Below, piece after piece: positions 8,158 through 8,256 of a stretch of DNA of 64,000 nt. The stretch spans positions 10,375 to 74,374 of the IMG/VR virus record IMGVR_UViG_3300033153_006784. The stretch is one strand, 5' to 3'. The notes below the pieces were generated by a model. It was not told the origin of the DNA. It was given only the letters and a program-made list of their open reading frames with translations, and made no database searches. The translations under genes and the position numbers were made by a program. Source of the stretch: a virus (lineage: Duplodnaviria; Heunggongvirae; Uroviricota; Caudoviricetes). Numbering within the stretch: position 1 is the first letter of the stretch; the number at the start of each line of letters is the position of its first letter.

Positions 8158-8256
8158 CATCCATCCGTGAGGTCATTTGTCCACCATGATGTTCCATTTG
8201 GGACATTTTGTTCTATTTGGGACATATTGATAGACAAACACGCCTACGGATGGATG
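8158..8256. repeat. About 100-nt element bounded by inverted repeats CATCCATCCGT...ACGGATGGATG (copy 1 of 2)
   Basis: About 80% identical to 41384-41481. Contains an internal hairpin atgttccatttgggacat. Intergenic. Confidence 0.6.

What the first reader, a model, noticed from the sequence alone, without database searches (positions are those of the whole stretch)
8158..8256. Two copies of a roughly 100-nt element bounded by 10-bp inverted repeats (ATCCATCCGT...ACGGATGGAT), 33 kb apart
Copies at 8158-8256 and 41384-41481 are about 80% identical and share the terminal inverted repeats. They also share an internal conserved hairpin (atgtYccatttgggacat, with a U.G-compatible change) and the conserved centre tttgtccac...ttctattt. 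Both lie in intergenic gaps downstream of + strand genes. They could be MITE-like mobile elements, a structured sRNA or terminator family, or protein-binding sites. Conservation of the structure rather than exact sequence argues for function.
Basis: seen in the sequence. Interest (0 to 1): 0.55.

Follow-up and report, generated by a model that had tools for sequence, protein, structure and literature searches.

The report
Small palindromic insertion repeated in phage
Two copies of a ~100-nt non-coding nested palindrome sit just after stop codons and just ahead of promoter-like motifs in an uncultivated tRNA-rich phage; they look like a tiny mobile (MITE-like) insertion carrying a terminator-like hairpin, which is a modest lineage-restricted curiosity and not a new class of element.

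Summary
Copies at 8159-8255 and 41384-41480 are each exactly 97 nt between perfect 10-bp inverted termini. They are 82.5% identical without gaps, and similarity falls to background exactly at the termini. They are the only two copies in the window and its two strongest local folds. No copy was found in Rfam, annotated phages, or the viral, genome and metagenome collections. Four related phages have only 41-54 bp at the copy B site. Removing copy B plus one 8-bp flank repeat in silico restores a colinear alignment with those empty sites. A distantly homologous ~100-nt sister element (CTCCTACCGT...ACGGTAGGAG) occupies a third intergenic site in two relatives. All three insertions carry imperfect 8-bp flanking direct repeats (p about 0.001-0.007). 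Each A/B copy contains a hairpin plus U-tract that scores as a sense-strand intrinsic terminator, and each sits between a stop codon and the next promoter-like motif. A/B differences avoid the stems. In the sister orthologs the termini and central hairpin are conserved above the neutral rate. Best reading: a MITE-like insertion family that works as a transcription-unit boundary. No transposase was found, and RNA versus DNA function is unresolved.

The parts
8158..8256 (+). Copy A of the element (99 nt including the 11th terminal pair C-G; 97 nt between the 10-bp termini, 8159-8255)
   Evidence: Strongest fold outlier of the window.
41383..41481 (+). Copy B of the element (97 nt between the termini, 41384-41480)
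   Evidence: Absent from the syntenic site in relatives L125, L128 and L130; that junction is rearranged in L132, which carries no copy.
8159..8168 (+). Left terminal inverted repeat ATCCATCCGT of copy A (partner at 8246-8255, ACGGATGGAT)
   Evidence: Perfect 10-bp pairing, identical in A and B. 100% paired, with 3 compensatory pairs against the sister family.
8246..8255 (+). Right terminal inverted repeat ACGGATGGAT of copy A
41384..41393 (+). Left terminal inverted repeat of copy B (partner at 41471-41480)
41471..41480 (+). Right terminal inverted repeat of copy B
8176..8181 (+). Inner stem P2, 5' arm TTTGTC of copy A (3' arm GACAAA at 8233-8238). In copy B the arms are 41401-41406 and 41458-41463.
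   Evidence: Invariant between A and B and paired in both. One compensatory pair against the sister family.
8189..8218 (+). Hairpin 1 (ATGTTCC-ATTT-GGGACAT, 8189-8206) plus T-tract TTTTGTTCTATTT: terminator-like on the + strand, copy A
   Evidence: Called terminator-like by the consensus scan.
41414..41443 (+). Hairpin 1 (ATGTCCC-ATTT-GGGACAT, 41414-41431) plus T-tract TTTTATTCTATTT: terminator-like on the + strand, copy B
   Evidence: One of only two + strand sites in 64 kb that pass strict terminator criteria.
8211..8222 (+). Hairpin 2 (TTCT-ATTT-GGGA) of copy A. In copy B it is 41436-41447 (TTCT-ATTT-AGAA). It is a near tandem repeat of the hairpin 1 unit.
   Evidence: Two G.U to A-U differences between the copies.
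8150..8157 (+). Upstream flanking 8-mer AAAATAAT of copy A (downstream partner AAAAAATT at 8257-8264, 6/8): candidate decayed target-site duplication
41375..41382 (+). Upstream flanking 8-mer ATTATTTT of copy B (downstream partner ATTATTTA at 41482-41489, 7/8): candidate target-site duplication
   Evidence: In-silico excision restores colinearity with the empty sites.
8262..8272 (+). Promoter-like motif ATTTATAAGTA, 30 nt upstream of the ATG at 8292. This is context and not part of the repeated unit.
41495..41505 (+). Promoter-like motif ATTTAAATATT, 34 nt upstream of the ATG at 41529. It is orthologous to the motif in the relatives' empty sites. This is context and not part of the repeated unit.

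Best explanation
The two copies are paralogous insertions of a small non-coding, MITE-like palindromic element (10-11-bp terminal inverted repeats, 97-99 nt) that belongs to a superfamily confined, as far as can be seen, to one group of uncultivated tRNA-rich tailed phages. The element has landed at least twice in this genome, in the A/T-rich stretch 6-8 nt after a stop codon and upstream of the next gene's promoter-like motif, leaving an 8-bp target-site duplication that has since decayed. Because it carries a sense-oriented hairpin followed by a U-tract, enclosed by long-range stems, it most likely acts as a transcription-unit boundary once inserted. In that role it would terminate or attenuate read-through from the upstream gene, and in read-through RNA it would form a very stable 3' hairpin. 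SHOWN: the duplication; sharp boundaries at the termini; empty sites in relatives; a homologous sister element at another site; the flank-repeat statistics; the fold; non-random conservation of stems and termini. INFERRED: transposition as the copying mechanism (the mobilising enzyme is unknown) and termination or RNA stabilisation as the function.
For: (1) Discrete unit. Both copies are exactly 97 nt and 82.5% identical. Flank identity drops to 25-40% immediately outside the termini, and local alignment of the flanks is no better than shuffles (p=0.94 and 0.41). (2) Insertion. Relatives L125, L128 and L130 have only 41-54 bp between the 607-aa gene and the 98-aa ORF, against 154 bp in the window. 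Removing copy B plus one 8-mer gives a gap-free alignment to the L128 and L130 empty sites, including the promoter-like motif. (3) Recent copying. A and B are 83% identical, whereas the 607-aa protein of the nearest relatives is only 38-48% identical to the window's, so the duplication is much younger than that split. (4) Sister family. L128 5719-5818 and L130 13284-13382 are ~100 nt with termini CTCCTACCGT...ACGGTAGGAG. They lie in the primase-helicase gap, where the window has 45 nt and L125 has no element. They are significantly similar to A and B (global alignment against shuffles p<=0.01; A vs S130 p<0.0003). (5) Flank repeats. In-register 8-mers match 6/8, 7/8 and 6/8 at the three independent insertions. 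This gives p=4e-5 against random intergenic pairs and p=0.0014 against shuffles that keep each flank's own composition. Only length 8 gives a signal. (6) Terminator-like core. Hairpin 1 plus the T-tract is called in both copies, and copy B's is one of two such + strand sites in 64 kb under strict criteria. Both elements sit between a stop codon and a strand-biased promoter-like motif (37 on + versus 12 on -, typically 25-43 nt before start codons). (7) Constraint. A/B differences fall on 3 of 56 paired versus 14 of 41 unpaired positions of B's own MFE structure (p=0.0003), and all 28 of those pairs are kept in A. In the orthologous sister pair the termini are 19/20 conserved and the central palindrome 18/18, against about 62% identity at four-fold sites. 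(8) MITEs in phage genomes are documented, though rare (PMC11602168).
Against: Only two copies are known, and no further copy was found in any collection. No transposase, integrase or HNH domain is detectable in the window's ORFs, and no parent autonomous element is known. The flank repeats are imperfect and lie in low-complexity A/T sequence. The boundary offset and the length 8 were chosen after looking; the p-value is about 0.007 after correcting for the five lengths tried. Copy A has no recoverable empty site, because its upstream gene is an ORFan and the nearest sulfotransferase homolog sits in a different gene context. Conservation of the termini at a fixed orthologous locus is not what a purely selfish, decaying MITE predicts, and points to a host-level function of the stem itself. 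The T-tract is interrupted (TTTTGTTCTATTT) and hairpin 1 has only 3-4 G-C pairs, so termination may be weak. Strand evidence is thin: 4 G.U-compatible changes versus 1 A.C on the + strand.
Confidence: 0.45

Rival explanations
1. This is a functional structured RNA module of the sense transcript: a long 3'-UTR hairpin acting as terminator, stabiliser or double-strand-specific RNase processing site. It has spread between intergenic sites by recombination, as PeSL cassettes do in T4-like phages, and not by transposition. The conserved closing stem is the functional part.
For: The fold is extremely strong. All stem differences between A and B keep pairing through G.U on the + strand, against 1 of 4 on the - strand. 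The only change in the sister termini is G-C to G.U on the + strand, and the termini are conserved far above the neutral rate at a fixed locus. The position between stop codon and promoter-like motif is identical to the PeSL layout (PMC2839356). Copy A adjoins an ORFan, as PeSLs often do.
Against: Similarity stops precisely at the inverted termini and does not include the promoter, so the repeated unit is not a promoter-terminator composite. The flanking 8-bp repeats are not expected from homologous recombination. The predicted global folds of A and B differ. Inner stems of the sister orthologs decay without compensation. If termination occurs at the internal U-tract, the 3' half needed for the long-range stems is not transcribed.
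Confidence: 0.27
2. These are double-stranded DNA protein-binding sites. The two tandem 19-nt dyad-symmetric units (TGTYCC-ATTT-GGGACA) would act as operators or iterons for a dimeric phage protein, for example at a replication origin or an upstream regulatory site, with the outer inverted repeats as additional sites.
For: The two units are tandem near-repeats, each with dyad symmetry, spaced 19 bp apart. This resembles the iteron and operator layout known from lambdoid origins (my own knowledge). Conserved blocks are conserved in sequence and do not co-vary between A and B. Copy B and the sister element lie inside the replication gene module, among helicase-like, primase-like and recombinase/helicase-like genes. 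The fold is about equally strong on both strands and with DNA parameters.
Against: Hairpin 2 changes GGGACA to AGAACA in copy B. That improves pairing with TTCT but alters the supposed recognition sequence. The sister family has an unrelated central palindrome. Copy A lies in an accessory-gene region. Binding sites do not explain the exact 97-nt unit with sharp termini, the empty sites in relatives or the flank repeats.
Confidence: 0.1
3. Each copy is an independent gene for a trans-acting small RNA with its own promoter and terminator.
For: The fold is stable and there is an internal terminator-like hairpin.
Against: There is no promoter-like motif of the type common in this genome directly upstream of either copy; each starts 6-8 nt after a stop codon. 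There is no Rfam match. There are no homologs outside this phage group. The two copies do not share a single predicted fold.
Confidence: 0.05
4. The similarity is chance or comes from a segmental duplication of a gene end.
For: None beyond the AT-rich context.
Against: The A-B match has E=5e-12. The flanking genes and flanks are unrelated. Near-identical contigs from other metagenome samples carry both copies unchanged.
Confidence: 0.01

Closest known systems
[quoted passage not shown] 2024, PMC11602168)
   Same: It is small (about 100 nt), non-coding and intergenic, with perfect 10-bp terminal inverted repeats and short flanking direct repeats. Occupancy differs between related genomes, and there is more than one copy per genome. 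It folds into a long hairpin.
   Different: Only two copies are known. No related autonomous element or transposase was found. No copy was found in any bacterial genome, so there is no host link, which is the usual pattern for vMITEs. The flank repeats are imperfect. Orthologous sister copies keep their termini under apparent purifying selection.
PeSL (promoter-early stem-loop) cassettes of T4-like phages (Arbiol et al. 2010, PMC2839356; Comeau et al. 2014, PMC4122927)
   Same: The layout is the same: stop codon, A/T-rich stretch, stem-loop that can terminate transcription, promoter, next gene. Both are associated with indels between related phages and with ORFans, and both are repeated within a phage genome.
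   Different: In PeSLs the repeated unit is a composite that includes a sigma-70-type promoter, and they spread by homologous recombination, with about 50 copies per genome. Here the repeated unit excludes the promoter, ends at inverted termini, is a ~100-nt nested palindrome, has two copies and carries flank repeats. The phage is unrelated to T4-like phages (TerL below 30% identity to any isolate).
Bacterial intergenic palindromic repeats co-transcribed with genes (REP/BIME, ERIC, Neisseria Correia elements); from my own knowledge, not tested here
   Same: These are ~100-150-nt imperfect palindromes in 3' untranslated or intergenic regions. They fold in mRNA and can attenuate transcription or alter mRNA stability or processing.
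   Different: Those families have tens to hundreds of copies in bacterial chromosomes and defined partner enzymes or target dinucleotides. There is no sequence similarity to them.
Intrinsic (Rho-independent) terminators
   Same: Hairpin 1 has 7-8 bp with 3-4 G-C pairs and a 4-nt loop, followed by a T-rich tract on the coding strand, directly after a gene.
   Different: It is embedded inside a larger nested palindrome with long-range stems that a simple terminator does not need. The T-tract is interrupted.
RNase III processing hairpins of T7-like phages; from my own knowledge, not tested here
   Same: These are long imperfect intergenic hairpins that recur within a phage genome between transcription units.
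   Different: T7 sites are shorter, are syntenic among relatives and are not bounded by conserved inverted termini or flank repeats. Cleavage cannot be tested here.

Membership tests
MITE (non-autonomous class II element) | Terminal inverted repeats of at least about 10 bp at the exact ends of the repeated unit | tested here: met
   The 10-bp TIR ATCCATCCGT/ACGGATGGAT is perfect in both copies (11 bp in A). Similarity between the copies ends at the TIRs.
MITE (non-autonomous class II element) | Small size (50-800 bp) with no coding capacity | tested here: met
   The unit is 97-99 nt. No ORF is shared by the two copies.
MITE (non-autonomous class II element) | Target-site duplication (2-10 bp direct repeat) flanking each insertion | tested here: inconclusive
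   The 8-bp repeats are imperfect: 6/8 (A), 7/8 (B) and 6/8 (sister). Combined p=0.0014 against own-composition shuffles, or about 0.007 after correcting for the lengths tried. Boundaries were chosen post hoc and the sequence is low-complexity A/T.
MITE (non-autonomous class II element) | Presence/absence polymorphism with recognisable empty sites in related genomes | tested here: met
   The copy B site is empty in L125, L128 and L130, and it is colinear with them after in-silico excision. The sister-element site is empty in the window and in L125. The copy A empty site could not be recovered.
MITE (non-autonomous class II element) | Multiple dispersed copies in a genome | tested here: inconclusive
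   There are two copies in 64 kb and none in the few kb reachable outside the window. The rest of the genome, which is at least 84 kb, could not be read.
MITE (non-autonomous class II element) | A related autonomous element or transposase that shares the TIRs | tested here: not met
   No transposase, integrase or HNH Pfam domain was found in the window ORFs. TIR-pattern scans of the viral, genome and metagenome collections returned only unrelated sequences.
PeSL cassette (T4-like phages) | The repeated unit is a composite of an early promoter and a stem-loop | tested here: not met
   The downstream promoter-like motif lies outside the repeated unit and is orthologous to the motif in the relatives' empty sites.
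PeSL cassette (T4-like phages) | A stem-loop placed between the upstream stop codon and the downstream promoter, acting as a terminator or attenuator | tested here: inconclusive
   The position is met and a terminator-like hairpin is present. Termination activity cannot be tested with these tools.
Intrinsic terminator | A G+C-containing hairpin immediately followed by a U-rich tract on the transcribed strand | tested here: met
   Hairpin 1 plus the T-tract passes the consensus scan in both copies, and copy B's passes stricter criteria. This is a sequence criterion only.
Any Rfam RNA family | A score at or above the family's gathering threshold | tested here: not met
   There is no hit at gathering thresholds. 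The permissive scan gave only sub-threshold generic microRNA-precursor (hairpin) and snoRNA matches.

The most novel reading that the evidence does not exclude
This could be a phage-resident superfamily of non-autonomous transposons ('portable terminators') that actively moves within and between lytic phage genomes. It would target the A/T run just after stop codons, make 8-bp duplications and be mobilised by an unrecognised phage- or host-encoded enzyme. After insertion it would be retained by selection because it insulates transcription units.
Probability: 0.15. Interest if true: 0.65.

Novelty: new member of a known kind. Interest (0 to 1): 0.35.

Why it matters
Transposable elements are rare in virulent phage genomes, and viral MITEs reported so far mostly mirror host MITEs (PMC11602168). 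Here the element appears confined to a phage lineage. It comes in at least two diverged subfamilies at three different stop-codon-to-promoter junctions, and it carries a terminator-like core. It is therefore a small, tractable example of how regulatory boundaries could be moved around phage genomes, an alternative route to the PeSL-mediated shuffling of T4-like phages. Practically, the element marks transcription-unit boundaries in an otherwise unannotated phage group. The impact is limited by the low copy number and by the lack of any experimental or enzymatic handle.

Tried and rejected
- Rfam at gathering thresholds and permissively: nothing except generic microRNA-precursor (hairpin) and snoRNA noise.
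- tRNA or tmRNA: not called at either site.
- The 14-mer ATCCATCCGTGAGG in viral contigs: at least 118 hits. None of those screened locally with blastn matched more than 17-18 nt of the element.
- Both-termini pattern in the viral, genome and metagenome collections: 1, 11 and 37 loci, none with any internal similarity by nhmmer. A recurrent 107-nt class is an unrelated Bifidobacterium / human-gut locus.
- Internal-core patterns in viral contigs: only coding-sequence coincidences.
- megablast, blastn and tblastn against annotated phages: no match for the region or the element. TerL matches only at below 30% identity.
- TerL search in IMG/VR: no relative.
- Extending the genome beyond the window: only about 2 kb on each side could be reached, and two look-ups failed on single-residue differences.
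- Empty site for copy A: the upstream ORF has no homologs. The closest sulfotransferase homolog sits in a different context with a 7-bp gap.
- Hammerhead-type ribozyme core, retron and CRISPR-repeat mimicry were considered from the sequence and dropped. No conserved core motif is shared by both copies, and there is no adjacent reverse transcriptase or cas context.
- The L125 hairpin at 20519-20603, which contains ATGGATGGAT, was examined as a possible third family. Its fold is weaker (z -3.6) and it has no convincing homology.
- The extended single-hairpin fold of copy A is not shared by B: 9 of 37 pairs break.

Full report
OBSERVATION. The two reported copies exist. Measured between the perfect 10-bp inverted termini ATCCATCCGT...ACGGATGGAT they are 8159-8255 (A) and 41384-41480 (B). 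Both are exactly 97 nt and they are 82.5% identical without a gap. An 11th terminal pair (C-G) exists in A. The match is far beyond chance (blastn E=5e-12 within the window; nhmmer E~1e-32). Only these two copies occur in the 64-kb window; the short hits at 28376 and 48815 are chance matches inside genes. In a sliding 110-nt fold scan A is the strongest outlier of the whole window on both strands, ahead of the tRNA clusters. B ranks second on the - strand and eighth on +. Against dinucleotide shuffles the fold z-scores are -8.5 (A) and -3.9 (B) on the + strand and -6.6 and -6.7 on the - strand. DNA parameters give the same picture.

CONTEXT. The window is part of an uncultivated tailed phage. 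It has TerL at 38013-39497, a family B DNA polymerase, a primase-like gene and a recombinase/helicase-like gene, many sugar and nucleotide-modification genes, and at least 15 tRNA genes. Almost all genes are on the + strand. No isolated phage is close: TerL is below 30% identical to any, and there is no DNA match. Contigs 99.2-100% identical to the window occur in several JGI metagenome samples and carry both copies unchanged; one variant has a 7-bp deletion just outside copy B. The 99-nt form of A starts 6 nt after the stop codon at 8149-8151, and that of B starts 8 nt after the stop codon at 41372-41374. Each is followed within 5-13 nt by an A/T-rich motif of the type CCTTTTTATATA / CTTTAAATA. 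That motif is strand-biased in the window (37 on + versus 12 on -) and usually lies 25-43 nt before start codons or just before tRNA genes, so it is probably this phage group's promoter. The copies after A and B lie 30 and 34 nt before their start codons. The elements therefore sit exactly at transcription-unit boundaries.

ANATOMY. The structure shared by both copies is Y-shaped:
- P1: the 10-bp termini.
- A 6-7-nt symmetric internal loop.
- P2: TTTGTC/GACAAA.
- Hairpin 1: ATGTYCC-ATTT-GGGACAT.
- Hairpin 2: TTCT-ATTT-RGRA.
The two hairpins are near tandem repeats of one ~19-nt dyad-symmetric unit. All 28 pairs of B's own + strand MFE structure are kept in A. The extended single hairpin that A prefers is not shared, with 9 of 37 pairs breaking in B. 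The 17 differences between the copies fall on 3 of 56 paired versus 14 of 41 unpaired positions of B's structure (Fisher p=0.0003). The three stem differences all keep pairing through G.U on the + strand, against one of four on the - strand. One further difference at the base of hairpin 2 gives A.C on the + strand, so the strand evidence is only a lean. Hairpin 1 together with the conserved TTTT[G/A]TTCTATTT is called an intrinsic-terminator-like site on the + strand in both copies. Under stricter criteria copy B's is one of only two such + strand sites in 64 kb. The opposite strand has no T-tract after its hairpins.

IS IT AN INSERTION? Homologs of the 607-aa gene upstream of B exist at 38-48% identity. 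In relatives L125, L128 and L130 the gap to the conserved 98-aa ORF is 41-54 bp, against 154 bp in the window; in L132 two extra genes occupy that junction. None of about 130 kb of relatives' sequence contains the element. The sequence downstream of B aligns with the whole short intergenic region of the relatives. Deleting the 99-nt element plus one 8-mer in silico gives a gap-free alignment with the L128 and L130 empty sites, running from the stop codon through the promoter-like motif to the next gene. Similarity between A and B ends exactly at the termini: flank identity is 25-40%, and local alignment of the flanks is no better than shuffles. So this is a discrete unit and not a segmental duplication, and the promoter is not part of it. 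The 607-aa protein of the nearest relatives is under 50% identical to the window's, whereas A and B are 83% identical, so the copying event is much younger than the split from those relatives (inference).

A SISTER FAMILY. A fold scan of the relatives found a ~100-nt element at L128 5719-5818 (z -6.8), with an ortholog at L130 13284-13382. Its 10-bp termini are CTCCTACCGT...ACGGTAGGAG. It has 9-nt symmetric internal loops, an inner stem and a central palindrome CTATATAGATCTATATAG followed by a T-rich tract. It lies between the primase-like gene (plus tRNA-His in L128) and the recombinase/helicase-like gene. In L130 it starts 8 nt after the stop codon, and it lies upstream of a TTTAAATA motif. 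The window has only 45 nt at that site and L125 has no element there. Global alignments of A or B with these elements score above shuffles (p<=0.01; A vs S130 p<0.0003; 22 of 32 identical at the left end), so the two families are probably distant homologs. Across the four sequences P1 is 100% paired with three compensatory pair changes, and P2 has one; slid controls give none. All of these trace to one split, and transposon TIRs would co-vary in the same way, so this confirms the pairing but does not separate an RNA stem from a DNA TIR. Between L128 and L130, four-fold synonymous sites of the flanking genes are about 62% identical and the element is 79% identical. The constraint is concentrated in the termini (19/20, the one change being G-C to G.U on the + strand) and the central palindrome (18/18). 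The remainder is about 65% identical, and its inner stems decay without compensation.

FLANK REPEATS. With the boundaries taken as [C/A]ATCC...GGATG for A and B, and CTCC...GGAG for the sister, the 8-mers abutting each end match in register:
- A: AAAATAAT / AAAAAATT, 6/8.
- B: ATTATTTT / ATTATTTA, 7/8.
- Sister: AAAACATT / TAAATATT, 6/8.
The summed score has p=4e-5 against random intergenic 8-mer pairs and p=0.0014 against shuffles that keep each flank's own composition. Lengths 6, 7, 9 and 10 give no signal. The boundary offset and the length were chosen after looking, so I treat this as supportive (about 0.007 after correction) and not conclusive.

DISTRIBUTION. No Rfam family matches. Pattern scans for both termini or for the internal blocks returned only unrelated sequences, as checked with nhmmer and blastn: six scans of IMG/VR (including one protein-based), one of GTDB genomes and one of JGI metagenomes. 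The metagenome collection did not return this phage's own contigs, so absence there is weak evidence. No transposase, integrase or HNH domain is detectable in the window's ORFs.

INTERPRETATION. The best-supported reading (about 0.45) is a MITE-like non-coding insertion family specific to this phage group. It inserts in the A/T run after stop codons, and because it carries a sense-oriented hairpin plus U-tract inside long-range stems, it serves as a transcription-unit boundary. All three independent insertions have the hairpin-to-T-tract orientation on the coding strand; by chance this would happen 1 time in 8, so it is consistent but not significant. The main rival (about 0.27) is that the element is primarily a functional RNA module, such as a terminator, 3' stabiliser or RNase site, that spreads by recombination as PeSL cassettes do in T4-like phages (PMC2839356, PMC4122927). 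The selective conservation of the closing stem at a fixed orthologous locus favours some host-level function. The sharp termini, empty sites and flank repeats favour transposition-like insertion. The two readings are compatible if a mobile element has been domesticated. A DNA-level operator or iteron reading (about 0.1) is suggested by the tandem dyad-symmetric units and by the location of B and the sister element in the replication module. It does not explain the discrete unit, and it is weakened by the pairing-improving changes in hairpin 2. An independent sRNA gene (about 0.05) lacks a promoter. Chance or a duplicated gene end is excluded.

NOVELTY. MITEs in phage genomes are documented but rare (about 0.2% of the viruses analysed in PMC11602168). 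Palindromic intergenic repeats that act in mRNA are well known in bacteria, and PeSLs provide a phage precedent for mobile terminator-promoter junctions. This element is a new family within that known territory. Its unusual points are the apparent restriction to a phage lineage, the terminator-like core, and the conservation of the termini in orthologs. Interest is moderate to low (0.35). Copy number is two, no enzyme is known, and function is inferred from sequence only.

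Noticed in passing
window 37300-37970 (+), in the 728-bp gene-free gap upstream of TerL (38013): There is a striking array of about 135 tandem pentamers of the form NNAGT (...GTAGT GCAGT ATAGT CGAGT TTAGT GAAGT...), with AGT nearly fixed and two variable bases. TRF reports periods 5, 10, 15, 20 and 25. Relatives also keep a 300-810-bp gene-free gap before TerL; in L125 it is a G/T-rich region with repeated GGTTTGGATGAACGG units and not pentamers. Its function is unknown; a packaging or terminase-binding site is one guess.
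   Followed up: partly
window 45603-45765 (+): Rfam calls a 163-nt tRNA (37.9 bits) with a 69-nt insertion in the anticodon loop and a long variable arm, Ser(GCU)-like. ARAGORN does not call it. It may be an intron-containing phage tRNA with an unusually short intron.
   Followed up: partly
window about 19890-20050 and 30482-30675 (+): Two further tRNA-like stretches have acceptor and T-arm-like ends separated by inserts of about 100 nt or more. They lie next to the tRNA clusters and neither tRNA tool called them.
   Followed up: no
window-wide, e.g. 2790, 5591, 16199, 19257, 20134, 23113, 29773, 31453, 35626, 36681, 37978: A recurrent strand-biased motif (C)CTTT(T)(A/T)ATATA occurs 37 times on + and 12 times on -. 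It is usually 25-43 nt upstream of start codons or just before tRNA genes, and is conserved at orthologous sites in relatives. It is probably the promoter of this phage group and is unlike sigma-70 consensus.
   Followed up: partly
L124 about 3111-3125, corresponding to window 41485-41491: A population variant from another sample lacks 7 bp (ATTTAGA) immediately downstream of copy B. The deletion removes most of the downstream copy of the candidate 8-bp duplication, while the element itself is identical.
   Followed up: partly
L125 20519-20603 and 18338-18436: Two other hairpins of about 85-99 nt, bounded by 9-bp inverted repeats, lie in intergenic gaps of a relative. The first lies between a tRNA cluster and a promoter-like motif and contains ATGGATGGAT, one mismatch from the A/B right terminus. 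Folds are weaker (z -3.6 and -2.4) and there is no convincing homology.
   Followed up: partly
window 43983-44055 (-) and L128 5599-5669 (-): A tRNA-His gene lies on the minus strand in an otherwise + strand genome. It is conserved in position, between the primase-like gene and the recombinase/helicase-like gene, in a relative whose neighbouring 607-aa protein is about 47% identical to the window's.
   Followed up: no
window 39551-41374 (+): The 607-aa protein after TerL has no Pfam or PHROG hit, but its distant homologs carry Prim-Pol (PF09250) or AAA_30 helicase domains. It is therefore more likely a replication protein than a portal.
   Followed up: no
window 30366-30434 (+): A perfect 14-nt inverted repeat TAGTATATAAAGGA / TCCTTTATATACTA, with arms 41 nt apart, places two promoter-like motifs in divergent orientation upstream of a tRNA cluster.
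   Followed up: no
L198 3141-5165, and the same gene in L199 and L200: In the more distant relatives, an epimerase/dehydratase gene of 674 aa carries a faint LAGLIDADG_3 hit between two epimerase halves. This suggests an intein or homing-endonuclease insertion.
   Followed up: no
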